Source: Bacteroidota bacterium (GTDB lineage Bacteria > Bacteroidota > Bacteroidia > NS11-12g > UBA9320). From it: a stretch of 64,000 bases of DNA. The notes under the pieces are model-generated. The model was not told the DNA's origin. It searched no databases and was given only the letters and a program-made list of their open reading frames with translations. The stretch spans positions 72,455 through 136,454 of the forward strand of contig NVWV01000009.1 of assembly GCA_002746305.1 (NCBI GenBank), in the 5' to 3' direction. Positions 1,175 through 27,279 of this stretch are shown here, in pieces. Positions within the stretch are counted from its first letter, which is position 1. Each line of letters opens with the position of its first letter. The position numbers were made by a program, and so were the translations under genes.

Positions 1175-1321
1175 AAGATACAATATGGTATAAAGATACT
1201 AATTAATACCACTGCTAGGGGAAAGGTAAACGGGACGGAGTTCTGTTTTTAATCTCCAATAGAAAATAGCCTTTCAAGATCTCACCTACTTAGTCATTTT
1301 TTATAAAAACTCACCCCACAT

Positions 1322-1352
1322 AAAAAGCCCCCTGCCAATGGCAGAGGGCTTT
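1322..1352 (-). terminator. Intrinsic terminator of the 2209-aa gene
   Basis: Minus strand AAAGCCCTCTGCC-ATT-GGCAGGGGGCTTTTT: GC-rich stem with one G-U pair and a U-tract, 22 nt after the stop. Confidence 0.8.
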
Positions 1353-1374
1353 GAGTGTTATTTAATACTAATAA

Positions 1375-4300
1375 TTATCGTTTTATTACTTTCACTAGCT
1401 TAGTGCCAGCTTTGGTAGTTATGTTTATAAAATACATCCCAGAATTTAAACTGCTCAAATCTATGTTTTGGATACGTTGAGTACCTGCCAAACTAGCTTC
1501 TAGTAGTAGTTTTCCTTCTATGTCTGTTACTGTGATGCTAACATCACTTTCTGCTTCTGCTCCTAGGTCTATGTACACATTAGCTGTAAATGGATTTGGA
1601 TATACTGCTATATCTAGCACTTCTATCTCCTGTCCAAATAGAACTTTGCGTACTTCAGTATACTCATTTTCTCCATTGTAGTCAAACTGGTTTAGGCGGT
1701 AGTATGCCCCCTTAGTTCCTTTGGCTACCTCATGGTCTGTGTAGTTATAGTGTAGTACTTCGTTGCTATTGCCGTTTCCTGCAACTTGGTCTATAGCTGT
1801 AAAGGTGTGTCCATCATAACTGCGTTCTATCACAAAGTGACTGTTGTTTATTTCAGTAGCTGTAGCCCAGTTAAGTTGTGCTGATGTACTGGACAATGCT
1901 CTAGCTGTGAAGTTGATGAGCTCTACGGGTATTGGTGTAGAACTAGCTCCACCGCCTCCGCCGCTTCCTCCGCCACCGCCAGAGAATGAACTTACCTTAA
2001 ATTCTGCTTGGTGATCTGATATACCAAATGCTGTATAAACCCACGTGTTAATACTTGCAGTACTCCCATTAGCTAAAATTTGCCCTGTAACTCCAGACGC
2101 ATGTGGATCTAAAAATGTACCCGCTGTCGTTAGTTTATACATATCCAAATCTAAAACAGTATCAATATGCGATGTATCTGCTCCATTGTTATGATTGGCT
2201 AAGGTATCTTTCAAAGCAAGATATTCTAAATTGGTAAAATAATATCTAATGCCTACATCTCCGGCACTTGGTTGCACAGAAGGTGTTACATTCCATCTAC
2301 GGTCTAGTATTGATCCTCCCGACACATTATGTATTATTCCGCTGCTGTCACTCCAACTTATAGTTTTTGTTGCTCCTAGTTTTAAACTTACTCCATTGTC
2401 TGGCACTACGGCTCCTGTCCCATTAGTATCTAGTGATAGGATAAGCATATTGGTTCCACAATCACAATAGTGTGTCCAATCGCCATCTTTAATACTTCCA
2501 GTTGACGTGTATGTTGTACTTATAGTAGTAGGCAACACTAACGAAATAAGAAAATTATTTTCGTAAGCTCCCATATCTACATCTGTATTTTGAATACGTA
2601 TAGAATCGACAATATCCGTCATTACTCCAGATGGGATATTCCCATTATTCCCGCTATTAATCCCTTTACTACAAGGTGCTAAATACAATCCATCATCTGC
2701 GGTCATCCAAGTATTATCTGCTCCGTCTGCATCTGCATTATCTATAAACTGAGCAGGGCTGATTACACAACCTGTACCTCCACTATAACTCTGCAATAGT
2801 GAATAAGTAACGTTTGCCGTACCTCCACTCACAAGCTCTATATCTGCTCCTGATGTGGCTGTTGATCCTCCTTTGGTATTACCAGATATGATACTGTTGA
2901 CTACTGTTACTGCTGAACCATCTACTGATATAGCTCCTCCTTGATTTGCTTCGTTGGCACTAAAGGTAACTGCATTTAATGTAGCTTCTGAACTACCTGC
3001 TAGCGAGAGACCGCCACCTAAACTACTTCCTCCAGTAACACTGTTGTCTGCAACTACTGCTGTAGTAAGTGATAATATTGTAGAATTACCTAAGTGAATG
3101 GCTCCTCCTTCTTCTACCGCCATATTATTATCATACACCATACGTGATGCAGAAATATCTGCGTGGCCTGTTTGCATGCCGCCACCATTTTTCGCTGCTT
3201 GGTTATCGGCTACTATCATATCCGAGAATACTACCGTACCTCCTAGTATGTTAAGTCCTCCTCCATATTCTCTGTCTACGGTTTCTCCGCTTATGGTTAC
3301 ACTTCCACTTTGAATCGCTTTTCCGTTTACAATTTGGAATCCACTCATGGTTACTTTTCCATTTGCTTTAGTCCAGTTATCTGAACTATCTATAAGCACT
3401 ACGTGATTGGCAAATACACTACTTCCCAAGTCACCATCTAGTACAGCTGGATTAGCCAACAAATCAATAATTCCTCCACCTGTAGCATAACTACCTATTA
3501 ACTCTAGCCCTGGACGGATATGGAACGTTTTATCTTCGGCATTTGCACCAGAAATAATACTTCCACTCATATCTGCATTCATATCATACGGCTCAGTACT
3601 AGGTGTGTACGTACCTTGTGCTACATGTACTTTTTCTACTTCAGCGTACGTCCAAGCAAAATCTAAGGCTTCACCTACTGTTTTAAATGGATTTGCCCAA
3701 CTAGCTCCGTGACCACTCATTGGCACACTTGCATCTACATAAATGTCTGCCGGCGGGTCTGAAAGTGTAGAATCACTTATAGAAACTACCGTAAAGTAGG
3801 TGGTAGAACCTAACTCAAATACATCTGTAGTAATACCTGAGATGGTAAGGGCTCCGTTATTTACTGTAAACGTAGCTTCTTTTAATTCTCCATCACTCAA
3901 ATCACTATCGGTATCTACCAATAGTCGCATATCGTCCATGTTGGCATAGAAATTTTTACCGCCTAGGAGTAGATCAATGGCAAATTCTTGATTGAAACTA
4001 GTATTGGTAGTTTTCCATTCTCTACCTATTCTAGTAACTACACTAGATGGATACTCCGTAGAAACTACTCTATTTAGTGAATCTCCATTGTGTCCCATCA
4101 TAAAATAGGCTTGCCCACCAAATCCTGCTGTATTAGCTGCATTGGTAGTGGCTAGCGTACCTACATAAAGTCTAGTTGAATCATTTTTTTGATGCGACTG
4201 CTTTTGATTGAAATCACTAAATACATCACTGGCTATACCCATTATATCTTGGTTATAGTTGGCCACATCATATATTACAGTACCGCACGTACTATAATAG

Positions 4301-7300
4301 TCGCTTGGTAATACTACACCATACTTGATAGCAAGGTATGATGTCATTTGGTTTAATTCATTGGTACTTAAACTGGTATCATAAGCGATAACCTCTGCGA
4401 TGCTTCCATTCAAAAACTGATTAGGCGTACCATTCAATCTACCGCTTAAAGCAAATTTATTGAAGGTCAAGGTATCATCTCCTGTATTGATACTATCATA
4501 CGTCATAGTGGTATTGACATACATATTGGTAATGGTATCTGTGATAACTACCGAATAAATAGACGGTGTAAGTGTACCGTTGCTCTGCGATACAGGTGTG
4601 GCTCCATTTCTAATGCTACCTACTGTACTGGCAGATGTACGGGTAATCAAGGCAGATGTAGCTATTTCGCTATCATCATTTAAGGCATCTTTGGATGCGG
4701 TAAATAACGATGGATTATCTCCTTCCGTACTTTCTAAATTGGCTACTACCAATACCGAAAAACTAGTCGTGCTATCTTTTATAGATGACCCAAATGCACC
4801 TGATAAACCACCATTGTCATTAAAATTGACCGTAGGATTATAGTTATGTGCATTCATCTCTAATACAGGACTAGTACCCAACACGGTAGTGGCATTATTG
4901 CCTGCACTCGAAAAATCTGTCCAAGACTGTACATCTACTCCGCTTAGTTGCACGCCTTCATCTGCTCGTAGCCACAGCTGTACATTGGGTGTGAAACCTG
5001 CCGGTGCTGACTGCGTACAGATAGCTTCTAACTCCGCCTTGTCTGTACATCCACAGCCATTGCCTGATATAGATACAAGATTATTTATAGTAGCTATATA
5101 ATTACACATGTTGGCATACTCACAGTCAGATAGCATATCATTATTTCTAATATACACTCGCTCATTTATAGTAGCTATGTTTTCTATTCCTTTTAGGCTA
5201 ATAAGCGAATCATTATTGTCAATATGAATACGATAAACGTGGGTAAGCCCACTTAAAGCTTCTATATTTTGTAGGCGAGGATTGCTTTGTATTTCTAAGT
5301 AATGATTGGTAGTACCTACGCAGCCTTTTAGTCCATCTAGATTTTGCAAATTAGTATTACTGGTAAACTTAATCCTCCCACCTGCATCTATTTTATGAAA
5401 TGAATCTACATTTTGCACCAACGGATTACTCTCAAAATAAAAATGAGAAATACCTCCTACTATTTGCCCCAAGTGATCTACATTTTCTAATTTTAAATTT
5501 CCCGATATTGAAAATTGTTGATTGCCTGTAGTGCTCACTATGTTACGTAAGCCATAAAAATTACGGATAGAATCATTGTTGTTGAGTACTAAGCCTCTAA
5601 TACCTGTAATACCATCCAAACTATCCATATTCATCAGGTTATTGTTATCTGATATATTGAGGTTTTGTATAACTCCTGATATCTTGCCCAGTTCATCCAG
5701 ATTGGAGATGCCGTAGTTATTAGCTATCGTAAGGTGGGTTCCTACCGAGGCTATATTGTGTATGCCCTCCATATCAGTAAGTGAATCATTTTGATATATA
5801 TACAACTGCCCTGTAATACTGGTAATACCATCCAGACTATCCATAGTGCGTAAGCGATGGTTGTTTTGAATATTAAGATTATTTATGCCTGTATGAATAT
5901 TACGTAACCCATCCAAATTTTCGATGTAACTGTTGTTATTAATATCTAAATTACCATTGATGGTGGTAATGTTATGCAGACCTTGTAAATCTTCTAAGGA
6001 GTCATTGTTGTAGAGGTATAGTTGTCCATTGAGAGACGTAATACCATCTAGCGAGTCTATATTTTCTAAGCTTTTATTATTGTAAATATAAATATACCCA
6101 TTGAGGTGACCGCTAAGTTTACCCAGTGCATTTAGGTTACGCAGAGAATCATTTTCTCGTATGTGTATATATCCGTTTATACTGTCCAGTACCGCAAAAT
6201 TGTCTAATGAATTTAATTTATAGTTCCTATATATATTAAAGTAGCCATTTATCATTCGCAGGTTTTCAAAACCAGCCAAGCTAATAAGACTCCGATTTCC
6301 ATAAATATACAAACTTCCCCAAAGCGTGTCTAAGCCGGATAATGCTGTTACATCGTTTAACGAATCATTGTTATATATCTGTAGATTAGTGATCCTATCA
6401 CCTATTCCCGCAAGGGCATCTAGGTTATCCAGTATTTTATTATCTCGTATATTCAGTACCCCGTTCATAGAGGCTATATTATCCATACCGTCTAGATCAT
6501 ACAGTTTATCGTTGTTACGAATACTAATAGTCCCATTTACACGTATTACATTTTCCAGTGAATCTACGTCCGTTAGCTCATAGTTGTTTTGTATAGTCAA
6601 AGACCCATTGATGGTATCGGTTAGGTTACGCAGCGGATTAAGGTTAGGTATAAGATTGCAATTTCCAATATACAGCTGGCCTCTACACGCCGTAAGCCCT
6701 TGCAATCCTCGCAAATCCACCAGCTTGGGAAGATTAGTGAGAGTCACGTATTGCACTGTAGAGATACCTTTTAGAGCTTCTATACTAGTCAACTCTGCAT
6801 TAGTCTCCATATAAATATACCCTGATATCTCGTCTATACCTGCTAGGCCATCTAGGTTCTCCAATTTCCCCATGCTTTGAATGGATATGGAGCTAACAGT
6901 AACAGAAGACGAGGAGGTGTGAAGACCACTTAATCCATCTAAGTCTTCTACCAATGGACTGTTATAAAAAGTTATTTGACCATTCATACTGGTAAGGTTA
7001 GACAGTCCGTCTATATTTTCCAGTTTATTGTTTATATAAAAATAAATATTCCCGTTGCAACCAGTGACACTATTTAGCCCATCTACGTTTTCTAACTTCT
7101 TATTACGATTAAACTCAATCTTTCCACCTACGGAGTCTATGCCTGCGAGTCCATCTACATGGATAAGCTCTGGATTATTTATAATATAGAGCTGTCCAAT
7201 GGTTCCTGACAAACCACTTAATCCATCTAAGTTAGCCAATATAGCATTATTATTTATGGTAATACTACCATCAAGATTTACCAAACTGGTCATATTCATA

Positions 7301-8004
7301 GTAGCCATTTTATCATTGTTAAAAATATCCATATAACCGTTTATGCCAGTAATGCTATTGAAATCATCCAAATCAGTAAGTTCTTTATTTTGCCATATTC
7401 TAAAATATCCATCTATGGAATCTAGACTACTTAGGTCTATACTAGTAAGTGCATTGTTGTCTTGAATATTAAGGTAACCTCCAAGCGTACCGTCCAAATT
7501 AGACAACCCATCTAAATCTTCTAATACATTATTGTAATCTATTAGCAAATACCCTCCAATAGAATCCAACGCAGACAGTCCATCTACATTAAGTAATGCA
7601 TCATTATCATAAAATCGAAGATAACCATTTATATAAGCAAGAGCAGACAGCCCATTTACATTGAGCAATGACGAGTTTCTATAAAAATACAGTTGATTTC
7701 CAATGGAGTCCAGTTGGCTTAATGCATCTACATGGGTTATAGATGTGCTTTGTATTTGAAGTCGCCCATAAATTTTCTTTATCTTGTGTAGCGAATCGAG
7801 ATTAAGAATTGCTGACCCACTGATGGTAAGATTACCTGTAATGGTATCTACCTGCCCCAGTGCATCTACCTGTGTTTGGGTGGTTAGTGTGCCTCCTGCA
7901 TGAGTAGTAGCTAAAACATTCTGGCTAAATAGTAATAAGAAGACAAATAGGGCTGATAGTCCTGTTTTCTTCATTGAGAAAGGACATTTGTAGTGTGATT
8001 TCAT
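1375..8004 (-). CDS. 2209-aa T9SS type A cargo: receptor-L/LRR-like solenoid, LamG-like domain, beta-helix (DUF1565/choice-of-anchor-Q-like), shared pre-CTD module, Ig-like domain, CTD
   Basis: Signal peptide; ~24-aa repeats LxxIxGxLxIxxNxxLxxLDGL; VQLWLRADEGV...SYLAIKYGV; IYVDAS..GHGASWANPF..VHVAQGTYTP; VDMGAYE; PIPVELINFTA; VYPNPF...KLVKVIKR. Confidence 0.85.
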   Translation of the reverse strand: MKSHYKCPFSMKKTGLSALFVFLLLFSQNVLATTHAGGTLTTQTQVDALGQVDTITGNLTISGSAILNLDSLHKIKKIYGRLQIQSTSITHVDALSQLDSIGNQLYFYRNSSLLNVNGLSALAYINGYLRFYDNDALLNVDGLSALDSIGGYLLIDYNNVLEDLDGLSNLDGTLGGYLNIQDNNALTSIDLSSLDSIDGYFRIWQNKELTDLDDFNSITGINGYMDIFNNDKMATMNMTSLVNLDGSITINNNAILANLDGLSGLSGTIGQLYIINNPELIHVDGLAGIDSVGGKIEFNRNKKLENVDGLNSVTGCNGNIYFYINNKLENIDGLSNLTSMNGQITFYNSPLVEDLDGLSGLHTSSSSVTVSSISIQSMGKLENLDGLAGIDEISGYIYMETNAELTSIEALKGISTVQYVTLTNLPKLVDLRGLQGLTACRGQLYIGNCNLIPNLNPLRNLTDTINGSLTIQNNYELTDVDSLENVIRVNGTISIRNNDKLYDLDGMDNIASMNGVLNIRDNKILDNLDALAGIGDRITNLQIYNNDSLNDVTALSGLDTLWGSLYIYGNRSLISLAGFENLRMINGYFNIYRNYKLNSLDNFAVLDSINGYIHIRENDSLRNLNALGKLSGHLNGYIYIYNNKSLENIDSLDGITSLNGQLYLYNNDSLEDLQGLHNITTINGNLDINNNSYIENLDGLRNIHTGINNLNIQNNHRLRTMDSLDGITSITGQLYIYQNDSLTDMEGIHNIASVGTHLTIANNYGISNLDELGKISGVIQNLNISDNNNLMNMDSLDGITGIRGLVLNNNDSIRNFYGLRNIVSTTGNQQFSISGNLKLENVDHLGQIVGGISHFYFESNPLVQNVDSFHKIDAGGRIKFTSNTNLQNLDGLKGCVGTTNHYLEIQSNPRLQNIEALSGLTHVYRIHIDNNDSLISLKGIENIATINERVYIRNNDMLSDCEYANMCNYIATINNLVSISGNGCGCTDKAELEAICTQSAPAGFTPNVQLWLRADEGVQLSGVDVQSWTDFSSAGNNATTVLGTSPVLEMNAHNYNPTVNFNDNGGLSGAFGSSIKDSTTSFSVLVVANLESTEGDNPSLFTASKDALNDDSEIATSALITRTSASTVGSIRNGATPVSQSNGTLTPSIYSVVITDTITNMYVNTTMTYDSINTGDDTLTFNKFALSGRLNGTPNQFLNGSIAEVIAYDTSLSTNELNQMTSYLAIKYGVVLPSDYYSTCGTVIYDVANYNQDIMGIASDVFSDFNQKQSHQKNDSTRLYVGTLATTNAANTAGFGGQAYFMMGHNGDSLNRVVSTEYPSSVVTRIGREWKTTNTSFNQEFAIDLLLGGKNFYANMDDMRLLVDTDSDLSDGELKEATFTVNNGALTISGITTDVFELGSTTYFTVVSISDSTLSDPPADIYVDASVPMSGHGASWANPFKTVGEALDFAWTYAEVEKVHVAQGTYTPSTEPYDMNADMSGSIISGANAEDKTFHIRPGLELIGSYATGGGIIDLLANPAVLDGDLGSSVFANHVVLIDSSDNWTKANGKVTMSGFQIVNGKAIQSGSVTISGETVDREYGGGLNILGGTVVFSDMIVADNQAAKNGGGMQTGHADISASRMVYDNNMAVEEGGAIHLGNSTILSLTTAVVADNSVTGGSSLGGGLSLAGSSEATLNAVTFSANEANQGGAISVDGSAVTVVNSIISGNTKGGSTATSGADIELVSGGTANVTYSLLQSYSGGTGCVISPAQFIDNADADGADNTWMTADDGLYLAPCSKGINSGNNGNIPSGVMTDIVDSIRIQNTDVDMGAYENNFLISLVLPTTISTTYTSTGSIKDGDWTHYCDCGTNMLILSLDTNGTGAVVPDNGVSLKLGATKTISWSDSSGIIHNVSGGSILDRRWNVTPSVQPSAGDVGIRYYFTNLEYLALKDTLANHNNGADTSHIDTVLDLDMYKLTTAGTFLDPHASGVTGQILANGSTASINTWVYTAFGISDHQAEFKVSSFSGGGGGSGGGGGASSTPIPVELINFTARALSSTSAQLNWATATEINNSHFVIERSYDGHTFTAIDQVAGNGNSNEVLHYNYTDHEVAKGTKGAYYRLNQFDYNGENEYTEVRKVLFGQEIEVLDIAVYPNPFTANVYIDLGAEAESDVSITVTDIEGKLLLEASLAGTQRIQNIDLSSLNSGMYFINITTKAGTKLVKVIKR
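5010..7910 (-). repeat. In-frame ~24-aa (72-nt) receptor-L/LRR-like repeats with a 72-aa (216-nt) super-period
   Basis: Protein repeats in the ORF track; DNA motif aataccatc recurs at 5608, 5824 and 6040 (216-nt spacing). Confidence 0.85.
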
Positions 8005-8065
8005 TGATGATATAAGTTATAATAGCGTACAATATGCATTCGACAAATACAGAGGGGCAAAAAAA

Positions 8066-8100
8066 TGTGAAGTAATGACCAGTTTTTGTGAAGTACTGAC
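8066..8100. promoter_or_regulatory. Candidate LytTR-type operator: 14-bp direct repeat with 21-bp period
   Basis: TGTGAAGTAATGAC (8066-8079) and TGTGAAGTACTGAC (8087-8100), 13/14 identical, ~60-95 bp upstream of the 2209-aa gene and just downstream of a LytTR regulator gene. Confidence 0.65.
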
Positions 8101-8269
8101 ATTTGGGGTCAAACTCCTGTTGTTTTAACCCTGAATTCGATTAATAATTCAAGACATAGTTTATTAAAAACCTATAGATATAAGACGATTTTTTTGCAGC
8201 ACTAATGGATTAATTGAACTTAGGTTTTAAGCTAAATATGTCACAGGTTCACAAAAGATAAAAGTACAC

Positions 8270-8965
8270 TTATAGTTCCTTGCATCTTTCCAAGACGCTT
8301 TTTTTATAAAGCTTGGAAATAGGAATACTCTCCTCTTCATCAGATATCCACAACTGATCTCCTTCTATGCGTTTCACAAAATCTGTATTGACAATGAATC
8401 TACGATGTACTTGGATGAAATGGCTATTCAGTTTTATGGATATATCACTCAATTTGGAGCGAGTAATGTGATTGGAATTGGGCAATACTATTTTTACATA
8501 GTTAGCATCAGAATATACCATCTTAATGTCCGATTGCTTAAGATTTCTCATTGTCTTTTTGGACCCTATGGTTAGGAAATCACTCTTTACTCTAGAAATA
8601 GAATCTATGACAATTTTTAAATTTGTAAGCACAGAAACCTCATTGTATGGTTTAAGAATAAATCCATCCGGTTTGGTTTCCATTACCGTTTTCATTGTTT
8701 GATGATCAGAATAGGCCGTCAGATACACAATTTTCAAATCCATTTCAGCCCTAATTTGTCCAGCTAAATGTGTACCAGATTGTCCAGAGCCCAGATTCAC
8801 ATCTAATAATACGATGTCTACTTGAAGCTGTCGCAACTCCTGCCATGCCTTTTCTGCATTGGATGCAGACCCAACTACATCGTATTTGTTTTTAAGCAAA
8901 AGTATCTCCAATGCTGTGCGGCTCACCGCCATGTCTTCTACTACGTAGACCCGATTATTTCTCAT
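8270..8965 (-). CDS. LytTR-family response regulator (REC + LytTR)
   Basis: VYVVED, VLLDVNL phosphoacceptor, FILKPY; C-terminal IKMVYSDANYVKI...FIQVHRRFIVN...IPISKLYKK LytTR motifs. Overlaps kinase stop by 11 nt. Confidence 0.92.
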   Translation of the reverse strand: MRNNRVYVVEDMAVSRTALEILLLKNKYDVVGSASNAEKAWQELRQLQVDIVLLDVNLGSGQSGTHLAGQIRAEMDLKIVYLTAYSDHQTMKTVMETKPDGFILKPYNEVSVLTNLKIVIDSISRVKSDFLTIGSKKTMRNLKQSDIKMVYSDANYVKIVLPNSNHITRSKLSDISIKLNSHFIQVHRRFIVNTDFVKRIEGDQLWISDEEESIPISKLYKKSVLERCKEL

Positions 8966-19384: not shown

Positions 19385-19421
19385 AAAAAAGCCTCGTTCT
19401 GTTTATCAGAATGAGGCTTTT
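19385..19421 (+). terminator. Intrinsic terminator after pdhB
   Basis: AAAAGCCTCGTTCTG-TTTAT-CAGAATGAGGCTTTT. Confidence 0.8.
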
Positions 19422-19501: not shown

Positions 19502-20854
19502 ATGAAATATACGATAGCCATCACGCTAAGCTTTATAATTTTAATCTTTGCATATAGTTGCAAAGACAAAGCTGAGATAGATGTAGAACCGATTTCGACA
19601 TGGGAAGTAATCCAGCAAAACATTCTAGATACCAAATGTATCTCTTGTCATACAGCAGGAAGCAGTCAAGCCACACAATCTGGTCTTGTACTTACATCAG
19701 ACGTAGCCTATGCCAGCTTAATTAATAAAACCCCAAAAAACACAGCAGCAGCTTCAGACAGCCTTAAGCTACTAGAAACCAAAGGATTAGAAAGTATATA
19801 CAACAGCTTTCTTTGGGAGAAAATAAATGCTCCGAACCAGGAACATTTCTATGAAGATCATCCTGAATATGGTGAGATTATGCCTCCTGGAAACATTCCA
19901 CTTACCAACGGAGAACTAGAGTTCATTCGCCAATGGATAGTGGCTGGAGCTCCTAAAACTGGCGGAGTAGTCAATACCTCATTGCTTGATGATAAATCTC
20001 TATTCACACCTGACACCTCATTCATCCCGCTAACACAGCCAACATCTGGAGTTCAAATCCACCTAGGTCCATTTAATGTAAAGACAAATTATGAACGGGA
20101 GCTATACGCATATAAACTTTTAGGAAACACCGAAGACATTTATGTGAACCGAATAGAAACGGCTATGAGACCTGGTACTCATCATCTCATTTTATATGAC
20201 TTTGAAGAAAATGCTACGCTTCCACAGAAAGACATTTTACGTGATATACGAGATGAAAATGGGAATCAAATAAACAGTACATTCCAAAGCCTTGCGGACC
20301 AAATTTTTATGTTTGGCACTCAATTTAGAAGCACAGATTACAAATACCCTGATGGAGTAGCTCAAAAGATTGTTGCCGGGAAGGGGCTTGATTTAAACAC
20401 GCATTATGTAAACTATGGTACCGAAGATATACAAGGAGAACTATATGTAAATCTTCACACCGTTGATAAAAGCCAGATCCAATATGAGGCTCAAAACCTA
20501 TTTCTGAATAGACTAGGTATTAATCTGCCTCCTAACCAAGAAACTACGCTTACTTCCGACTATACGTTTAACGATACCCGAAGCATCTTTATGCTTACTG
20601 CTCATGCCCATAAGCTAATGACGGAGTTTAGAATTCAAATAAAGGGAGGAGCCCGTGACGGTGAATTAATATACTATACTAATGACTGGGAACATCCTGA
20701 GATTAAAGAATACGACCCTCCTTTGGAGCTTGGTCCAGGAGAAGGGCTACGTGGCATTGCCACCTATAACAACACTACTAGTAATACGAAACGTTTCGGA
20801 CTACTTAGCACCGATGAAATGATGATCATCTTTGGGGCTTACTACACTCCATAA
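19502..20854 (+). CDS. Lipoprotein: c-type cytochrome domain fused to a PHM/DBH-like (copper type II) monooxygenase
   Basis: Lipobox AYS-C20; C46-I-S-C49-H50 heme motif with IMPP (M127) and IRQWIVAGAP; GTHHLI (H227,H228), LNTHY (H301), TAHAH (H368,H370), DEMM (M440). Confidence 0.75.
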   Translation: MKYTIAITLSFIILIFAYSCKDKAEIDVEPISTWEVIQQNILDTKCISCHTAGSSQATQSGLVLTSDVAYASLINKTPKNTAAASDSLKLLETKGLESIYNSFLWEKINAPNQEHFYEDHPEYGEIMPPGNIPLTNGELEFIRQWIVAGAPKTGGVVNTSLLDDKSLFTPDTSFIPLTQPTSGVQIHLGPFNVKTNYERELYAYKLLGNTEDIYVNRIETAMRPGTHHLILYDFEENATLPQKDILRDIRDENGNQINSTFQSLADQIFMFGTQFRSTDYKYPDGVAQKIVAGKGLDLNTHYVNYGTEDIQGELYVNLHTVDKSQIQYEAQNLFLNRLGINLPPNQETTLTSDYTFNDTRSIFMLTAHAHKLMTEFRIQIKGGARDGELIYYTNDWEHPEIKEYDPPLELGPGEGLRGIATYNNTTSNTKRFGLLSTDEMMIIFGAYYTP

Positions 20855-20967
20855 ACTTAAACCCCTTTGGTTTAAGAAAGGTATATCTGTTTTCTTTCAA
20901 TGTCAGAGACTTAAACAGTCTTTTGTTAATGAATTAGACTAATACATTAAATACATATCTTTGAAAT

Positions 20968-21396
20968 ATGAGATTCGTAATCGCCGCATGCATATTTCTA
21001 TCTATTCTAAGTTGTTCAAAGATTAAAAATAAAGCATCTGAAGCTGCTGGAGAAGTGGGTGAAGTTGTTGGACAAACTGGAAGTGAATTTATCAAGGGAG
21101 TAGGCGATGGAAGTGGCATAACCTTGGAGTGCGACCTAGAATTATCTGAGAAAATTAAGGAAATGAACATCTTTAACGGTCATTACGATGTTAATGTTGC
21201 CGGAGTTGAAATCTATGCAATCTTTGAAAAAGACGTGAATGATTCTGCTATGGTAGTACTCAGAACCGAAGATGGTTTAGAATATGCCAGAAGCAAGATG
21301 TAACTCGTTGGTACAGCTAAGGAAGGAAAAAATGTCTCAGTTTCATTTGACGAACATATTAAAAAGGGAACAACAATCTACATTGATAAATACTAG
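20968..21396 (+). pseudogene. Hypothetical lipoprotein interrupted by an in-frame TAA (21301-21303)
   Basis: Lipobox ILSC; the frame continues 30 codons past TAA (LVGTAKEGKNVSVSFDEHIKKGTTIYIDKY) to TAG at 21396, 3 nt before the next ATG; TATCTTTG box at 20956-20963. Confidence 0.6.
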
Positions 21397-21399
21397 ATT

Positions 21400-21768
21400 A
21401 TGAAAGTAATAAGCATCATTTTAATAGCAATTGTAGCTATTGAGCATATCTATATTATGTACATGGAAATGTTCGCTTGGGAAACTTTAGGTCGTAAAAC
21501 CTTTAAAGGAGCTCTACCGGATGAGTTATTCACTCCAACTAAAAGTTTGGCCGCTAACCAGGGTTTATACAATGGATTCTTAGCTGCTGGTCTCATCTGG
21601 AGTTTATTTATAGACAATGCAGAGTGGTCTAGTAACGTTGCCATTTTCTTCTTAGCTTGTGTAGCAGTAGCCGGCTTATATGGTGCTGCGACTGCTAGTA
21701 AAAAAATACTGTTTGTACAAGCATTGCCCGCTATCATTACCTTAATCTTGGTAATACTAACCCGATAA
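21400..21768 (+). CDS. DUF1304 family membrane protein
   Basis: EHIYIMYMEMFAW, AANQGLYNGFLAAGL, KILFVQALPA; hydrophobic helices. Confidence 0.85.
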   Translation: MKVISIILIAIVAIEHIYIMYMEMFAWETLGRKTFKGALPDELFTPTKSLAANQGLYNGFLAAGLIWSLFIDNAEWSSNVAIFFLACVAVAGLYGAATASKKILFVQALPAIITLILVILTR

Positions 21769-21955
21769 ATTAGGCTATTTATTTTGTGACACAAATGCTC
21801 CAAATATGTTAGCATTTGCGGTTAATGATATTTGCTTTTTTTGGAACGCTTAAAAAAAGTACTACCTTAGTAATAAGTAAAAGTTTGGAGTCTGCTGAAA
21901 ACCCTTAAAGATTAAGCAACTCAAAATTCATTTACAACCCAAAATAACCCCAATC

Positions 21956-23815
21956 ATGAAAAAAACAATTACCCTGAAACAGTATGTTCTTTTATTAGCA
22001 TTTCTGTTGTTACTCCCTTCGTTAATGGTAGCCCAAACAATCACATTTGGATTTAAAAACCCAGTTCCAAAACCCTATGTAATGAATGGCCCAAATTTTG
22101 AATTTGAAGTTCAAGGAGCCATGCACAATTTTGATCCAAATGGTTCTGTTACAAGTACTAACTTAAACGTTCCATTAGCCACCTATTGTTACAACGCTGT
22201 AGGAAATAGCTCAATGACCTATTTGGGTCCATTACTAATTTTCAAGAGAGGTGTTCACCATACGTTTAAAATTACGAACCTGCTTCCAGATGGTGTAAAT
22301 ACTACGGTGCATTGGCATGGTTTAAATATTCCGGCAAAGGATGATGGAGGACCACATCAAGTGATTCAGAACAATGATACTGACGGTTGGAAACCTAGCT
22401 TTACCATGATAGATCCTGTACAAACGGTATGGTATCACACACACTTAATGAATCAAACCACGGATCAGGTAATCAGAGGACTCGCAGGAATGATTATTGT
22501 AGAAGACGACAACGACCCAATAGCTTCTAGTGTGCCAACGGATCTTTGGGAAAACGACTTTCCACTTTGTATTCAAGAAAAAAACTTTGTTATTGATTCC
22601 GCAACAAATAAAGCAACTGCAATAGTGGCAGGAGAGAAACCAGGTCCAGGCCCTTATACTTTAGTAAATGGAGTTGTAGGCGGATATTTAAGAGTGCCAC
22701 CAGAGATGGTGAGATTACGAATTTTGAATGGTTCCCCTAGAATGATGTACAATATAGGTCTAACACCAGAGGCAACTGCTATGTCAGGCTTTGCAAAAAT
22801 GCACATGATCGCTACTGGAGGAGGTTATTTGGCAGCTCCAGTATCTGTAGACTCCACTTTAATGTCAATTGGTGATAGAAGAGAATTTATAGTAGACTTC
22901 TCCTTATATGCAAATGGTGACACTGTATATATGAGAAATCTCACAGTACCAAAAGATGCCGCTTATGGTAAAACTGCAGGGAATGCTTTGATGGCATTTG
23001 TAGTTTGGAATCCAATTGTTCCTCCAAATCCAATTGTTTCTGTACCTGCAACATTAGATGCATCTTATGGTTTATCTGCAGGAAGTATAGATCACTCCAG
23101 AACGAAACGTCTTCAAAATGTCAAAGGCACTCCCGGCAACGGAAAAGGCGGTGCTTGGTTAATAGACGGAACGGGAATGGATATGAGCGTTATTAATGAT
23201 ACTGTATTGGTAAACACCAAAGAAAGTTGGACTATCATTAATGAAACCAATCATGCCCACCCCTTTCATATTCACAAAGTGCAATTCCAAATAACTGAAT
23301 ATAGAGGGACCCCAGGAACTACAAATCCAAAAGGAGTATATACTTTCCCTAATTTACCAGCTGAACTTGTAGGCTATAAAGATGTTCAATTATTAAGGGC
23401 TAATGACACAATGACTTTTGAAGCTCGTTTTGATAGCTTCCCAAGTCCTGTACTCGCTCCAACAGAAGGCTACATGTACCATTGCCATATTCTTACTCAT
23501 GAAGATACAAGCATGATGCATCAGTTTGTTGTAGTGGACTCAGCACTGTTCTTTGCAGGCTTAGAAGCACTTTCAGGAGTTGAATACTTAACAGTTTATC
23601 CGAACCCAGCAAGCAACTCCATTTCATTTAAAGGAGATTTTGCAAAACCAGGGGTTCTAACGGTGTTTGATGTATTCGGAAGAGAAATTAAAAAACAAAA
23701 TATTATTTCACTGAGCAACTCAAGAATTGACGTAACTGATCTTCCAAAAGGAATGATAATTATAGAGTTTTTGTCTGGCAATAAACGCTACATATCAAAG
23801 GTAACTTTGCAATAA
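21956..23815 (+). CDS. Multicopper oxidase (laccase/CueO-like) with T9SS type A CTD
   Basis: VHWHGL, WYHTH, HPFHIH, HCHILTHEDTSM (Met axial ligand); signal peptide; VYPNPAS...ISKVTLQ CTD. Confidence 0.92.
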   Translation: MKKTITLKQYVLLLAFLLLLPSLMVAQTITFGFKNPVPKPYVMNGPNFEFEVQGAMHNFDPNGSVTSTNLNVPLATYCYNAVGNSSMTYLGPLLIFKRGVHHTFKITNLLPDGVNTTVHWHGLNIPAKDDGGPHQVIQNNDTDGWKPSFTMIDPVQTVWYHTHLMNQTTDQVIRGLAGMIIVEDDNDPIASSVPTDLWENDFPLCIQEKNFVIDSATNKATAIVAGEKPGPGPYTLVNGVVGGYLRVPPEMVRLRILNGSPRMMYNIGLTPEATAMSGFAKMHMIATGGGYLAAPVSVDSTLMSIGDRREFIVDFSLYANGDTVYMRNLTVPKDAAYGKTAGNALMAFVVWNPIVPPNPIVSVPATLDASYGLSAGSIDHSRTKRLQNVKGTPGNGKGGAWLIDGTGMDMSVINDTVLVNTKESWTIINETNHAHPFHIHKVQFQITEYRGTPGTTNPKGVYTFPNLPAELVGYKDVQLLRANDTMTFEARFDSFPSPVLAPTEGYMYHCHILTHEDTSMMHQFVVVDSALFFAGLEALSGVEYLTVYPNPASNSISFKGDFAKPGVLTVFDVFGREIKKQNIISLSNSRIDVTDLPKGMIIIEFLSGNKRYISKVTLQ

Positions 23816-23832
23816 AAGTAAATATCATTATG

Positions 23833-23872
23833 AAAAAGACCTTTCAGATAATATTATCTGAAAGGTCTTTTT
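23833..23872. terminator. Bidirectional terminator; perfect 40-bp palindrome
   Basis: AAAAAGACCTTTCAGATAAT|ATTATCTGAAAGGTCTTTTT between convergent genes. Confidence 0.85.
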
Positions 23873-23930
23873 TGTCTCGTCAAACTGGTGAAACAAACGA
23901 AATATTTTCCTTTAAATTAAACGACATTAC

Positions 23931-26900
23931 TTACTCCTTTACTACTTTCTTTTCAATCACTTCTCCATCGGTGATTATCCTAAGTATGTAAATACCATGT
24001 TCAATCCCATTTCTGAATTCAAGCTTTACCAGATTCGAATTAACATCTTCACTATAAATAGTTCTACCGTACAAATCGAGTAACTCCACTTTTTGAATTT
24101 CATCATGACCTACTGATACAGAGATAGAGTTCTTAAATGGATTTGGAGATATATGAATACTTGACTCTGCTTTTATAACTATAATTTCAGAAAAACTAAA
24201 GTTACCATCAAAGTCAATTTGCTTTAACCTATAGTAAGATTTCTCATTGCCCATATTTGAGTGATTGAATGAATATTTAGATATGGAAGTGGTAGTTCCA
24301 TTTCCTGCTTCAATTCCAACGGTTCTAAAATTATCTTCATCCACACTTCGTTGAATTTCGAAATGACTACAATTGATTTCCGAAGCCGTGATCCACTCAA
24401 GATTAACTATTTCAGCTCTTTTACGGCCAATGAAACTAAGCCATTCCACAGGAACTGGGGCTGTTACATTACCTGGATTAAATATTGGGACAAAATTGGA
24501 AAATGAAGTGATGCTAAACTCAGCCATCACAACTGAATCACGAACTAAAGTCATTGTAGGATTTATCTGAATGGGGTTAGCTCCTAAATAATTTGTGAGA
24601 CTACCTTCGTCCATCTTAGAGATCCGCATGCTATCCGTATAAAAAATTTCCAAACTTGGACCAACTGCAATTCCCCTATTTGCTAATGAGTCTCTCCAAA
24701 TAGCCAACTCTCTTTCGTTAAAATACAATCGAACAATTGCACTTCTATTGGTAAACTGTGGAGTAATGTAAAAATTTCGAGGAGACAAGAGTGCCATATT
24801 CCCAAATGTATCCAAGGCCGTTCTGACAATTGCACTTGAATCCTCTATGTTAATTCCAAAACATGTAGCACCCAAATAACTCCCATTTGGATCTATACTC
24901 ATTAAAAGTCTTCCTGTAGAATCAACCATATCAAACCATCCACTTCCGGATAAGATTGAACATGAAGCTGATCTTTCATATTGTCCTGTTTCGACTCTGA
25001 TTGGAGGTAATACAGTGTCTTTTACGCATAAACCGAATGTATCTCCAACTTCACTATTACTTGCTCTGTATACTTGTAAATAAACGGTATCCCCAGCCAA
25101 ACCAAGGTTTCTCAAACTTAAATCAGGGTAATTCCCCGAAGAATTACAATCTTCTTCTACTAAACTTGCACAACTTCCTGAGTAAGCTACGATTCTAAAG
25201 TTTGACGAAACAACATCTACCTGTTCCATACTAATAAATACATCATCTGAGCTAGGCACTTCAAATGCAAACCACACATCCGCACCAGAATACGCCCCAC
25301 AAGCTCCAGATGGAACTGAACTAAATGTCGCATTCATATTATTAAAAGTATCGAGGACACAGTTACCTTGAGTTACACTCATAAATTGAGCCTTCTCGCA
25401 ATTATCATTTCCTGGCAACTGACTCGTTCCGAATGAATCCAATCGTAAGGAAAATGAACCTAAAACATCACCGCTAAATCTATTTGCAATCCGCACCCAA
25501 ATACTATCTCCGGCTATACTTGGGTCTATTACCCTTAAAAACTCACTACAATTATTGGTCTGACCATTGTTGCAATTTCCATTCACACAGTTGTATATAC
25601 TTAGAGCTCCACACCCCCCGGTATAGACTCTTAAATATTGATTCCAAGTTCCAGCAATTTTAGTGGTCCTCAATTCAAAGCCCCCACTACTTGGCATCTT
25701 AAACTTAAACCACACATCTTGGTCATCTCCGCATGTAGCTAGATTTGTATTTGCAATAGCACCAAGAAGCGTAAAAGTATCAATAGACCCAAAATTTGAA
25801 CTCAAATCTATTGCCGCTTGGCAAGAATCATTTACTGAGAATTCAGAGGTAGGTATTTCAGTAATATTCAAGGAAAATGAATCTAAAACATCATTGTTAA
25901 ATCTATTTGCAATCCTCACCCAAACAGTATCTCCAATTATGCTGGGATCTATTATTTTCCGATAGGCTCCGCAATTTGAAGTTGCATTATAACTATCACA
26001 CGTACCATCACACGCATAGTCCGTAAGACTTGCACACCCGCCGGTGTACACTCTAAAGTATTGATTCCAAGTTCCAACAAGCTTAGTGGTACTCATTTCA
26101 AATCCACCACTGCTTGGCACCTCAAACTTTACCCAAACATCTTCATCTGAACCACATGTGGCCATATTTGTCTCAACAATAGCGTTCTTTAAGCTAAGTG
26201 TATCTGATGCCGTAGTATACAAATTTGTACTTATGTCTATAGCATCACCACAGGAATCATTGGGAGCAAAATCTGAGGTTGAAATTTCGGAGAGATTAAA
26301 AGAAAAAGAATCCGGAGGAGTGTTACCGAATCTATTTGATATTTTTACCCATAAAGTATCTCCAGCGATACTCGGGTTTATTATTCTTCTATGATCTCCA
26401 CAATTGGAAGTAGCATTGTAATCGTCACATGTGCCATCACAAGCATAATCAGCAAGGCTTGCACATCCTCCTGTATACACTCGCAAATATTGGTTCCAAC
26501 TACCAGATTGTCTCGTGGTACTCATTTCCATTCCTCCACTACTTGGCACTTTAAATTTCACCCATATATCATTTGCGGTTCCACAAGTAGAAAGGTTGGT
26601 CTCAACCAGAGCGTTCAACAATGAAAGGGTATCCGAAGTCGGACTATAGAGATTTGCACTTACATCTTGAGCTGCTCCGCAAGAATCATTAACTGGAAAG
26701 TCAGAATCCGAAAGTTCTTGATATATAATCGAACCATTTGAATCTACATTACTGAAACGACCAGATATCCGTATGTAAACAGTATCACCAGCAAGCGAAG
26801 CATCTTTTAATAGAATATAGTCTCCACAGTTTGTTCCTGAGTAATACTGACAGGTGCCTTGACAGGCATATGTCGTAAGGCTTCCACAACTCCCTGTATA

Positions 26901-27173
26901 TAGGCGTAAATACTGGTTCCAACTCCCTCCAATTACACTCGTACGCATTTTAAAAGCCCCGCTACTGGGCACTTCAAACTTGTACCATACATCTTGACTT
27001 GACCCACAGCCTGTAAGATTAGATGTAGCATCTTTTAATCTAAAAGTATCTGTTATTTCAGTTGTTGACATAGTCAAAATAGTAGCGTTTTGACATGAAT
27101 CATTACTTGGTGCCTGAGCAAATGCTGAGCAGCAAAAAGTAAACAAGGAGGCAATATGCACAAGTCTTCTCAT
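23931..27173 (-). CDS. 1080-aa T9SS type A cargo with five Cys-rich ~140-aa NDxC...DVW repeats, pre-CTD module, Ig-like domain, CTD
   Basis: Signal peptide; repeats NDSC...DVWxKF.VPSSG...WNQYxRVYTGGC; PVPVEWLSF; ISPNPF...KKVVKE. Confidence 0.85.
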   Translation of the reverse strand: MRRLVHIASLFTFCCSAFAQAPSNDSCQNATILTMSTTEITDTFRLKDATSNLTGCGSSQDVWYKFEVPSSGAFKMRTSVIGGSWNQYLRLYTGSCGSLTTYACQGTCQYYSGTNCGDYILLKDASLAGDTVYIRISGRFSNVDSNGSIIYQELSDSDFPVNDSCGAAQDVSANLYSPTSDTLSLLNALVETNLSTCGTANDIWVKFKVPSSGGMEMSTTRQSGSWNQYLRVYTGGCASLADYACDGTCDDYNATSNCGDHRRIINPSIAGDTLWVKISNRFGNTPPDSFSFNLSEISTSDFAPNDSCGDAIDISTNLYTTASDTLSLKNAIVETNMATCGSDEDVWVKFEVPSSGGFEMSTTKLVGTWNQYFRVYTGGCASLTDYACDGTCDSYNATSNCGAYRKIIDPSIIGDTVWVRIANRFNNDVLDSFSLNITEIPTSEFSVNDSCQAAIDLSSNFGSIDTFTLLGAIANTNLATCGDDQDVWFKFKMPSSGGFELRTTKIAGTWNQYLRVYTGGCGALSIYNCVNGNCNNGQTNNCSEFLRVIDPSIAGDSIWVRIANRFSGDVLGSFSLRLDSFGTSQLPGNDNCEKAQFMSVTQGNCVLDTFNNMNATFSSVPSGACGAYSGADVWFAFEVPSSDDVFISMEQVDVVSSNFRIVAYSGSCASLVEEDCNSSGNYPDLSLRNLGLAGDTVYLQVYRASNSEVGDTFGLCVKDTVLPPIRVETGQYERSASCSILSGSGWFDMVDSTGRLLMSIDPNGSYLGATCFGINIEDSSAIVRTALDTFGNMALLSPRNFYITPQFTNRSAIVRLYFNERELAIWRDSLANRGIAVGPSLEIFYTDSMRISKMDEGSLTNYLGANPIQINPTMTLVRDSVVMAEFSITSFSNFVPIFNPGNVTAPVPVEWLSFIGRKRAEIVNLEWITASEINCSHFEIQRSVDEDNFRTVGIEAGNGTTTSISKYSFNHSNMGNEKSYYRLKQIDFDGNFSFSEIIVIKAESSIHISPNPFKNSISVSVGHDEIQKVELLDLYGRTIYSEDVNSNLVKLEFRNGIEHGIYILRIITDGEVIEKKVVKE
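25020..27115 (-). repeat. Five in-frame domain repeats (periods 414, 429, 429, 423 nt)
   Basis: The N-D codon pair motif gaatcatt/ttatcatt at 27097, 26683, 26254, 25825, 25402. Confidence 0.85.
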
Positions 27174-27279
27174 TTGGTTTTAATAAAGTTAGTGGACCAA
27201 ATATACTTGCACATCCAAACATAGTCTAAATGCCAGAGGCAAATGTGGTGAATGGTAAGAAAATCGTGGTGAACTGTTA

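What the first reader, a model, noticed from the sequence alone, without database searches (positions are those of the whole stretch)
19502..20854. Cytochrome c - PHM/DBH-like copper monooxygenase fusion lipoprotein (self-sufficient electron supply?)
Seen: lipobox Cys20; CxxCH (C46,C49,H50) with a distal Met candidate (M127); H227-H228...H301 and H368-x-H370...E439-M440; no other Cys. Known: animal peptidylglycine alpha-hydroxylating monooxygenase uses H107,H108,H172 (CuH) and H242,H244,M314 (CuM), needs ascorbate, and is disulfide-rich. The HxH-to-Met distance here (70) equals that of PHM. Inference: a bacterial, disulfide-free, membrane-tethered two-copper monooxygenase whose heme domain replaces ascorbate by taking electrons from the respiratory chain. 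Substrate unknown (peptide C-terminal amidation, amine or aromatic hydroxylation). I know of no characterised enzyme with this architecture.
Basis: partly seen in the sequence, partly recalled or inferred. Interest (0 to 1): 0.8.

Follow-up and report, generated by a model that had tools for sequence, protein, structure and literature searches.

The report
Cytochrome c fused to PHM-like copper monooxygenase
This gene encodes an uncharacterised bacterial lipoprotein in which a haem (cytochrome c-type) domain is fused to a two-copper oxygenase domain of the kind that makes adrenaline precursors and amidated hormones in animals. It belongs to a large, unnamed family in marine bacteria whose substrate is unknown.

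Summary
ORF 19502-20854 (+) encodes a 450-aa protein with Cys20, C46xxC49H50, M127, H227-H228, H301, H368xH370 and E439-M440, and no other Cys.

All of these are invariant in 25 homologues. The copper ligands are kept in 106-110 of 110 diverse relatives.

An AlphaFold model (pLDDT 86) matches human DBH and rat PHM (Foldseek E about 1e-12). A profile of related proteins aligns to PHM (E 1e-6), with every proposed ligand on H107/H108/H172/H242/H244/M314.

The N-domain is helical. [quoted passage not shown]

Relatives that lack this domain have it as a separate gene immediately upstream in 5 of 5 contexts. The two parts therefore work together.

The family is large (3748 clusters), unnamed, and mostly from marine Bacteroidota, Gemmatimonadota and Marinimicrobia.

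PHM's peptide-binding residues are absent and there is no PAL-like neighbour, so peptide amidation is unlikely.

Not tested here: haem and copper binding, the direction of electron flow, the electron source and the substrate.

Verdict: real, a new variant of a known enzyme kind, with no experimental data.

The parts
19387..19421 (+). Terminator-like hairpin (15-bp stem followed by a T-run) after the upstream pyruvate dehydrogenase E1-beta gene. It suggests the gene is transcribed on its own.
   Evidence: The upstream gene is identified by Transket_pyr and Transketolase_C hits.
19502..20854 (+). Whole coding sequence, 450 aa plus stop: cytochrome c-like domain fused to a PHM/DBH-like two-copper domain.
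19502..19561 (+). Signal peptide ending in the putative lipidated Cys20 (codon 19559-19561).
   Evidence: The sequence is read directly. Cys20 is invariant in 25 homologues. A crude count finds a lipobox-like Cys in 32 of 37 family members of 520 aa or less.
19589..19996 (+). Cytochrome c-like helical domain, residues 30-165.
   Evidence: The model is all-helical: pLDDT 88 for the domain alone and helices 33-163 in the full model. There are sub-threshold Pfam CTI and Cytochrom_C hits. Of 44 weak PDB profile hits, 40 are c-type cytochromes. Stand-alone homologues of about 160 aa exist.
19637..19651 (+). Haem c attachment motif C46-I-S-C49-H50.
   Evidence: C..CH or a C(x3-4)CH variant in 96 of 110 representatives
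19880..19885 (+). M127-P128, candidate distal haem ligand.
   Evidence: It is invariant in A1 and in the N-domain alignment A4, which includes the stand-alone proteins. M is present in 91 of 99 aligned representatives. H115 and H120 are not conserved outside the close subfamily.
20048..20467 (+). First beta-sandwich (about residues 183-322), the equivalent of the PHM CuH domain. It carries H227-H228 (nt 20180-20185) and H301 (nt 20402-20404).
20468..20851 (+). Second beta-sandwich (about residues 323-450), the equivalent of the PHM CuM domain. It carries H368-x-H370 (nt 20603-20611) and E439-M440 (nt 20816-20821).
   Evidence: Pfam Cu2_monoox_C matches residues 361-449 at E 0.0067, below threshold. 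Also. The model has low confidence at residues 436-438.

Best explanation
The gene encodes an exported, probably lipid-anchored, two-module redox enzyme.

The C-terminal module is a bacterial, disulfide-free homologue of the non-coupled binuclear copper monooxygenases PHM, DBH and TBM. It would have an electron-transfer copper site (CuH: H227, H228, H301) on the first beta-sandwich. It would have an O2-activating copper site (CuM: H368, H370, M440) on the second.

The N-terminal module is a monohaem c-type cytochrome. Haem would be attached at C46/C49, with H50 and M127 as axial ligands.

The proposed mechanism is as follows. The haem accepts single electrons from a periplasmic or membrane donor and passes them to CuH. 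This does the job that ascorbate does in the animal enzymes. CuM then uses O2 to hydroxylate a C-H bond of a substrate that is not a glycine-extended peptide.

Shown here, by computation only: the fold, the ligand homology, conservation across the family, and the genetic coupling of the two modules.

Inferred: metal and haem binding, the direction of electron flow, the identity of the donor, and monooxygenase chemistry.
For: Fold. The AlphaFold model has pLDDT 85.8 and pTM 0.80. Its best PDB matches are human DBH 4zel (E 2.5e-12) and about 30 rat PHM entries (E about 1e-11, TM 0.60-0.67 on the target, about 290 columns). The next unrelated hits have TM below 0.25.

Ligand homology. A profile of 12 copper-only relatives hits PHM at E 1e-6 over both domains. 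It aligns HH to HHMLLF (H107/H108), H to VHYGD (H172), HxH to HTHHLG (H242/H244) and DEM to SDEMC (M314). Those relatives match the query's family profile at E about 1e-80.

Conservation. All ligands are invariant in 25 homologues and present in 106-110 of 110 diverse representatives.

Cytochrome domain. C(x2-4)CH and Met-Pro are invariant, including in the stand-alone proteins. 20 of 25 members give sub-threshold hits to the N-terminal part of Pfam CTI. Cti is an experimentally shown periplasmic haem-c protein with His/Met ligation (PMC11727003). 40 of 44 weak PDB hits are c-type cytochromes.

Coupling. In 5 of 5 contexts of copper-only relatives, the gene immediately upstream encodes a lipoprotein of about 160 aa homologous to the N-domain. 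Conversely, the fused gene has no conserved neighbour in 81 loci, as expected for a self-contained unit.

Precedent from general knowledge. Fused cytochrome c donors are known for the copper enzymes NirK and NosZ, and for caa3 oxidases.
Against: No experimental data exist for any family member.

Model coordinates could not be read, so the copper-site geometry and the haem-CuH distance were not measured. The loop carrying M440 is modelled with low confidence (pLDDT below 50 at residues 436-438).

The N-domain model alone finds no structural neighbour in the PDB. All its sequence matches to cytochrome families are below curated thresholds.

Pfam's Cu2_monooxygen N-domain model does not match at all, and Cu2_monoox_C matches only below threshold in this protein.

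About 47 of 110 family representatives carry a type IX secretion tail. They would be outside the outer membrane, away from respiratory donors.

Half of the family uses Cx3CH or Cx4CH. These are unusual haem attachment motifs.
Confidence: 0.7

Rival explanations
1. The cofactors are the same but the electrons flow the other way. The copper domain oxidises a substrate as a dehydrogenase or oxidase, and the electrons leave through the haem to the respiratory chain or another acceptor. This would resemble periplasmic copper or quinoprotein dehydrogenases that pair with a dedicated cytochrome c.
For: A fused or adjacent cytochrome c is equally typical of periplasmic dehydrogenases. Nothing computed here fixes the direction of electron flow. 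The stand-alone gene pairing fits either direction.
Against: All three CuM ligands, including the Met that is characteristic of O2 activation in PHM, DBH and TBM, are conserved in 106-110 of 110 representatives. From general knowledge, no member of the PHM/DBH fold is known to act as a dehydrogenase.
Confidence: 0.1
2. The N-domain does not bind haem. Its Cys-...-Cys-His and Met-Pro residues instead bind copper or form a redox-active dithiol. On this reading it acts as a metallochaperone or thiol-based partner for the copper domain.
For: The N-domain model finds no cytochrome structure in the PDB. The Cys spacing varies from 2 to 4 residues. All cytochrome family hits are sub-threshold. One split operon has an MbnP-family copper-binding protein nearby.
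Against: The His directly after the second Cys and a distal Met-Pro are the classical class I cytochrome c signature, and both are invariant. The weak hits are almost exclusively c-type cytochromes. The closest Pfam family (CTI) is a proven haem-c protein with a Met distal ligand. The topology also fits class I cytochromes: N-terminal helix, then CxxCH, then Met, then C-terminal helix.
Confidence: 0.08
3. The copper domain is a non-catalytic binding module of the PHM/PNGase F superfamily, or a copper-storage or detoxification protein, rather than an oxygenase.
For: The substrate and the activity are unknown. A type IX-secreted multicopper oxidase lies 1.1 kb downstream in this window.
Against: Two complete PHM-type ligand sets are conserved across more than 100 divergent sequences. 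The multicopper oxidase neighbour is missing in the closest relatives and in the 81-locus survey.
Confidence: 0.04

Closest known systems
Peptidylglycine alpha-hydroxylating monooxygenase (PHM, catalytic core of PAM; PDB 1PHM, 1OPM, 1SDW)
   Same: Both have a two-beta-sandwich fold (Foldseek E about 1e-11, TM 0.60-0.67). The CuH (His, His, His) and CuM (His, His, Met) ligand sets are homologous and sit in aligned positions. The spacing from HxH to Met is identical at 70 residues.
   Different: Identity is only 13-15%. PHM has five disulfides and this protein has none. PHM's peptide-binding residues R240, N316 and Y318 are replaced by T366, I442 and F444. There is no PAL partner. Ascorbate is presumably replaced by a fused cytochrome c. 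The protein is bacterial and lipid-anchored.
Dopamine beta-hydroxylase (PDB 4ZEL), tyramine beta-monooxygenase, and MOXD1/2
   Same: DBH is the best structural match (E 2.5e-12). The binuclear non-coupled copper core is the same.
   Different: DBH has an N-terminal DOMON domain and a C-terminal dimerisation domain, and it is disulfide-linked. Here the accessory domain is an unrelated helical cytochrome c-like domain.
Copper-only bacterial relatives with a separate cytochrome gene (for example P0162, P0163, P0179; operons in L009, L010, L092, L094, L096)
   Same: The copper domain is the same (E about 1e-80 to the family profile). The N-domain is the same, encoded as its own lipoprotein of about 160 aa.
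   Different: The system is split into two genes. It always uses Cx4CH. It is followed by a third conserved gene of about 200 aa for a putative outer-membrane beta-barrel. No homologue of that gene lies near the fused genes. None of these proteins has been characterised.
Lipid cis-trans isomerase Cti (Pfam PF06934), N-terminal haem-c domain
   Same: It gives the nearest Pfam match to the segment around M127 (20 of 25 members, best E 1.7e-5). Cti is a periplasmic haem-c protein with His/Met ligation (PMC11727003).
   Different: The match is sub-threshold and covers only about 45-60 residues. The rest of Cti (about 600 aa) is unrelated. In Cti the haem is the catalytic centre, not an electron relay.
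Copper enzymes with fused cytochrome c donors (cytochrome-fused NirK, cytochrome-fused NosZ, caa3 oxidase subunit II); fungal LPMO with the cellobiose dehydrogenase cytochrome domain
   Same: The logic is the same: a haem domain delivers single electrons to a copper centre that reacts with a small oxidant. This comparison rests on general knowledge and was not tested here.
   Different: The copper folds are unrelated (cupredoxin, LPMO), and the haem domains are mostly unrelated. This is a functional analogy only.

Membership tests
PHM/DBH/TBM copper type II monooxygenase superfamily (Pfam Cu2_monooxygen + Cu2_monoox_C) | Fold of two antiparallel beta-sandwich domains | tested here: met
   The AlphaFold model (pLDDT 85.8) matches 4zel and about 30 PHM entries with Foldseek at E 1e-9 to 2.5e-12 over 282-316 columns.
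PHM/DBH/TBM copper type II monooxygenase superfamily (Pfam Cu2_monooxygen + Cu2_monoox_C) | CuH ligands: an HH pair plus a third His in domain 1 | tested here: met
   H227, H228 and H301 are each present in 110 of 110 representatives. They align to PHM H107, H108 and H172 through the profile of copper-only relatives.
PHM/DBH/TBM copper type II monooxygenase superfamily (Pfam Cu2_monooxygen + Cu2_monoox_C) | CuM ligands: HxH plus Met in domain 2 | tested here: met
   H368 is present in 109, H370 in 110 and M440 in 106 of 110 representatives. They align to PHM H242, H244 and M314.
PHM/DBH/TBM copper type II monooxygenase superfamily (Pfam Cu2_monooxygen + Cu2_monoox_C) | Score above the curated Pfam thresholds | tested here: not met
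   Cu2_monoox_C scores 16.4 bits against a cut-off of 23. There is no hit to the Cu2_monooxygen N-domain model. The copper-only relative P0162 does pass (35.4 bits). The family is therefore a distant branch that the models do not cover.
PHM/DBH/TBM copper type II monooxygenase superfamily (Pfam Cu2_monooxygen + Cu2_monoox_C) | Binds two Cu about 11 Å apart and hydroxylates a C-H bond with O2 | not testable with these tools
   This needs metal analysis, a structure and an activity assay.
Peptidylglycine alpha-hydroxylating monooxygenase proper (EC 1.14.17.3) | Substrate carboxylate and backbone anchors R240, N316 and Y318 (residue roles are from literature knowledge of the PHM-peptide complexes) | tested here: not met
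   The aligned positions are T366, I442 and F444. Across 110 representatives position 366 is T/S/Q/V/F/M and position 442 is I/L/V/F.
Peptidylglycine alpha-hydroxylating monooxygenase proper (EC 1.14.17.3) | Partner lyase (PAL, NHL-repeat propeller), fused or adjacent | tested here: not met
   No neighbour family occurs in more than 9 of 81 loci. The neighbours in the window are E1-beta, a small lipoprotein and DUF1304.
Class I c-type cytochrome | CxxCH haem attachment motif in an exported protein | tested here: met
   C46-x-x-C49-H50 follows a signal peptide. It is invariant. Family-wide the motif is C(x2-4)CH in 96 of 110 representatives.
Class I c-type cytochrome | Distal Met ligand, with N- and C-terminal helices flanking | tested here: inconclusive
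   M127-P128 is invariant, including in the stand-alone proteins. The helices at 33-45 and 136-147 fit the class I topology. However, Foldseek finds no cytochrome match for the domain, and the HMM hits are sub-threshold.
Class I c-type cytochrome | Covalently bound haem | not testable with these tools
   This needs a haem stain, a pyridine haemochrome spectrum or mass spectrometry.
Bacterial lipoprotein | Signal peptide II with a lipobox Cys | tested here: inconclusive
   A hydrophobic segment is followed by A-Y-S-C20, and the Cys is invariant in 25 homologues. The box is non-canonical, and no dedicated predictor was available.

The most novel reading that the evidence does not exclude
This is the founding member seen here of a large, unnamed family of non-coupled binuclear copper monooxygenases from the FCB group of bacteria (Bacteroidota and allies). 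These enzymes are driven by a dedicated c-type cytochrome, fused or encoded next door, instead of by ascorbate. They act on a non-peptide substrate at the cell envelope or cell surface. That would make them the first PHM/DBH-type enzymes with a protein electron donor built in.
Probability: 0.55. Interest if true: 0.8.

Novelty: new variant of a known kind. Interest (0 to 1): 0.68.

Why it matters
PHM, DBH and TBM are the textbook non-coupled binuclear copper monooxygenases. How electrons cross the roughly 11 Å solvent gap from CuH to CuM is still debated.

The animal enzymes are disulfide-rich and glycosylated. They are awkward to produce, and they depend on a diffusible reductant.

A disulfide-free bacterial homologue with a covalently attached haem wired to the CuH domain would help in two ways. 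It could be expressed in bacteria, and it would carry a built-in spectroscopic electron donor for timing the haem to CuH to CuM transfer.

The family is also large. It comprises 3748 clusters at 50% identity and occurs in marine Bacteroidota, Gemmatimonadota, Rhodothermia, Marinimicrobia, KSB1 and Poribacteria. It has no name in any source consulted. Its substrate could therefore point to an unrecognised oxidative reaction at the envelope of abundant marine heterotrophs.

The split and fused forms, and the lipoprotein and type IX-secreted forms, are natural variants that could be used to test where the enzyme works and what reduces it.

Tried and rejected
1. Direct sequence searches against the PDB, with the protein and with its 25-sequence profile, found nothing. 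The link to PHM appeared only through the copper-only relatives and through fold comparison.

2. A fold search with the N-domain alone gave no match (best E 8.3). The cytochrome assignment therefore rests on motifs and weak HMM hits.

3. Neighbourhood analysis of the fused gene found no conserved partner (5 individual look-ups; 81 loci clustered). The DM13 gene upstream in L001 and the multicopper oxidase downstream in the window are not conserved. I rejected both as partners.

4. I rejected a PAL-like partner and peptide amidation.

5. I considered H115, H120 and H398 as extra ligands. They are invariant only in the close subfamily and not family-wide.

6. Seven literature searches found no description of this architecture. 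Only the Cti haem-c paper was useful. The library is incomplete, so absence there is weak evidence.

7. NCBIfam gave only a 13.6-bit hit to a dihaem cytochrome family.

8. The haem-CuH distance and the copper-site geometry could not be computed, because model coordinates are not exposed to the scripting tool.

Full report
**Observation**

Window 19502-20854 (+) is an intact ORF of 450 codons that starts at the first possible start codon. The protein has only three cysteines.

A strong hairpin terminator (19387-19421) separates the gene from the upstream pyruvate dehydrogenase E1-beta gene. The window contains no paralogue and no other CxxCH protein of 150 aa or more.

**Conservation**

The protein has 971 word-indexed homologues at E ≤ 1e-3. 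Every one that a source names is called a hypothetical protein, and the precomputed Pfam column is empty for all but one (a CTI entry).

In 25 homologues at 52-80% identity, all the proposed lipid, haem and copper residues are invariant.

An exhaustive profile search finds 3748 clusters (at 50% identity) at E ≤ 1e-3, and 313 at E ≤ 1e-30.

In 110 of the best representatives (27-50% identity to the query) the counts are:
- HH pair: 110/110
- H301: 110/110
- H368: 109/110
- H370: 110/110
- E439: 108/110
- M440: 106/110, with His in 3 of the others

**The copper domain**

Pfam gives only a sub-threshold Cu2_monoox_C hit (16.4 bits against a cut-off of 23, residues 361-449). It recurs in 16 of 25 homologues.

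An AlphaFold model built from the 25-sequence alignment has pLDDT 85.8 and pTM 0.80. It shows a helical N-domain (residues 33-163) and two beta-sandwiches (183-448).

Foldseek against the PDB puts human dopamine beta-hydroxylase first (E 2.5e-12). About 30 rat PHM entries follow (E about 1e-11, TM 0.60-0.67 normalised to PHM, about 290 aligned columns, 13-15% identity). Everything after that has TM below 0.25.

The family also contains lipoproteins of about 310 aa that lack the N-domain. One of them passes Pfam's threshold for Cu2_monoox_C.

A profile of 12 such proteins hits PHM at E 1e-6 across both domains. The alignment places the family's residues on PHM as follows:
- HH on H107/H108
- the single His on H172
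- HxH on H242/H244
- E-M on E313/M314

The Cu-site geometry in the model could not be inspected, because coordinates are not exposed. The M440 loop is also locally low-confidence.

**The haem domain**

Residues 30-165 are helical. An N-terminal helix runs into C46xxC49H50, and a C-terminal helix follows M127-P128. That is the class I cytochrome c layout with a large insertion.

Across fused and stand-alone homologues, the only invariant features are Cys, Cys-His, Met-Pro and a W-I-x-x-G-A-P helix end. The Cys spacing is 2 residues in 48 representatives, 3 in 11 and 4 in 37.

20 of 25 members give sub-threshold hits (best E 1.7e-5) to positions about 74-131 of Pfam CTI, centred on the Met-Pro segment. 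Cti is a periplasmic haem-c enzyme with a CXXCH motif and a Met distal ligand, shown experimentally (PMC11727003).

A profile of the domain hits 44 PDB sequences weakly. 40 of them are c-type cytochromes, the best being cytochrome c6 at E 0.006.

Against this, the domain model on its own has no structural neighbour in the PDB. The fold is either a new cytochrome c variant or one not yet solved.

H115 and H120 are conserved only in the close subfamily. Met127 is therefore the better candidate for the sixth ligand.

**Coupling of the two modules**

The copper-only relatives supply independent genetic evidence. I examined five contexts (L009, L010/L011, L092, L094, L096). In every one, the gene directly upstream encodes a lipoprotein of about 160 aa that is homologous to the N-domain, always with Cx4CH and Met-Pro. 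In every one, a third gene of about 200 aa follows. These third genes are homologous to each other and look like a small outer-membrane beta-barrel.

The N-domain profile retrieves more than 100 clusters of such stand-alone proteins.

The window protein is the fused form of genes 1 and 2 of this operon. The junction lies near residue 165, where the stand-alone cytochromes end.

The fused gene has no conserved neighbour: no family recurs in more than 9 of 81 loci. No homologue of the third gene lies near it.

In the two closest genomes the gene also follows E1-beta directly. The window's 20.9-27.2 kb segment, which holds the multicopper oxidase and a large type IX cargo protein, is missing there. 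Those are not functional partners.

**Mechanism**

The best-supported reading is a self-contained copper monooxygenase. The haem takes single electrons and reduces CuH, which sits on the sandwich directly linked to the haem domain. CuM then activates O2. I put this at about 0.7.

Fold, ligands, conservation and module coupling are shown computationally. Cofactor binding, the direction of electron flow and the chemistry are inferred from the PHM/DBH paradigm.

About 47 of 110 representatives carry a type IX secretion C-terminal tail instead of a lipobox. This was confirmed by Pfam for three of them. Those proteins should end up on the cell surface, where a respiratory donor is hard to picture.

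**Substrate**

The PHM residues that hold the peptide's C-terminal carboxylate and backbone are R240, N316 and Y318. They correspond here to T366, I442 and F444. Family-wide, position 366 is T/S/Q/V/F/M and position 442 is aliphatic. No PAL-like gene is nearby. Peptide amidation is therefore unlikely, and nothing computed here points to a specific substrate.

**Distribution**

One scan of species-representative genomes found 197 loci. The 80 retained come mainly from marine Bacteroidota (Saprospiraceae, Cytophagales, Cyclobacteriaceae, Flammeovirgaceae, Chitinophagales), Gemmatimonadota, Rhodothermia, Marinimicrobia, KSB1 and Poribacteria. Cultured carriers include Ekhidna lutea DSM 19307, Portibacter marinus and Imperialibacter. 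The closest match is a Sphingobacteriales MAG at 80% identity.

**Comparison and novelty**

The protein works like PHM or DBH and belongs to that structural superfamily. It fails the curated Pfam thresholds and lacks PHM's substrate anchors, disulfides, and the DOMON and PAL partners.

The haem domain is closest to the Cti haem-c domain. Fused cytochrome donors are familiar from NirK, NosZ and caa3 oxidase, which is an analogy only.

Seven literature searches found no description of this architecture. This is weak evidence, because the library is incomplete.

I classify it as a new variant of a known kind: real, widespread, unannotated and experimentally untouched.

Noticed in passing
L009:3-2138, L010:4421-6575, L092:5001-7091, L094:5001-7103, L096:5001-7478: Copper-only relatives sit in a conserved three-gene operon. 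The first gene encodes a Cx4CH cytochrome-like lipoprotein of about 160 aa. The second encodes a PHM-like copper lipoprotein of about 310 aa. The third encodes a putative outer-membrane beta-barrel of about 200 aa. The third proteins are homologous to each other (E 1e-11 to 1e-24) and give weak OMP_b-brl hits. The third gene has no counterpart near the fused genes.
   Followed up: partly
family-wide (alignment A6); stand-alone proteins in L010, L092, L094, L096: The haem attachment motif is Cx4CH in 37 and Cx3CH in 11 of 96 representatives, and always C-x-[TLS]-S-G-C-H in the split form. Which cytochrome c maturation system handles these spacings in Bacteroidota is unclear.
   Followed up: no
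L009:2205-2813: An MbnP-family protein (E 1.6e-12), from a family of periplasmic copper-binding proteins, lies two genes downstream of one split operon.
   Followed up: no
L001:7315-7737: A 140-aa DM13-domain protein lies 264 bp upstream of one fused homologue. DM13 domains accompany DOMON and DBH-type redox proteins in eukaryotes. It is not conserved in other loci.
   Followed up: partly
window 21956-23815 (+): A multicopper oxidase (Cu-oxidase_2 and Cu-oxidase_3) with a type IX secretion C-terminal sorting domain lies 1.1 kb downstream of the finding. It is absent at this position in the closest relatives.
   Followed up: partly
window 1100-18360 and 20900-27200: Relative to the two closest genomes (L012, L016), these segments look like insertions around a conserved pair, pdhB followed by the cytochrome-copper gene. 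They are rich in type IX secretion cargo genes: 1375-8004, 2209 aa (tail motif seen by eye only); 11096-14152; 14482-15123; 23931-27173.
   Followed up: partly
window 11096-14152 (-): A 1018-aa type IX cargo protein contains about eight tandem copies of a repeat of roughly 55 residues (…GTPYVAYxDxANSxKATVMKYNGSxWxxVGSAGFS…), probably a beta-propeller.
   Followed up: no
window 23931-27173 (-): A 1080-aa type IX cargo protein contains several repeated Cys-rich modules of about 125 aa. They match the GBD_T9SS_assoc galactose-binding-like domain.
   Followed up: no
window 15405-18212 (+): A hybrid regulator combines TPR repeats, a transmembrane segment, HisKA and HATPase domains, a receiver domain and an AraC-type HTH in one 935-aa protein.
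   Followed up: no
window 53330-57163 (+): Four consecutive genes look like a metal ABC importer (lipoprotein binding protein, ATPase, two permeases). This is judged from length and sequence ends only.
   Followed up: no
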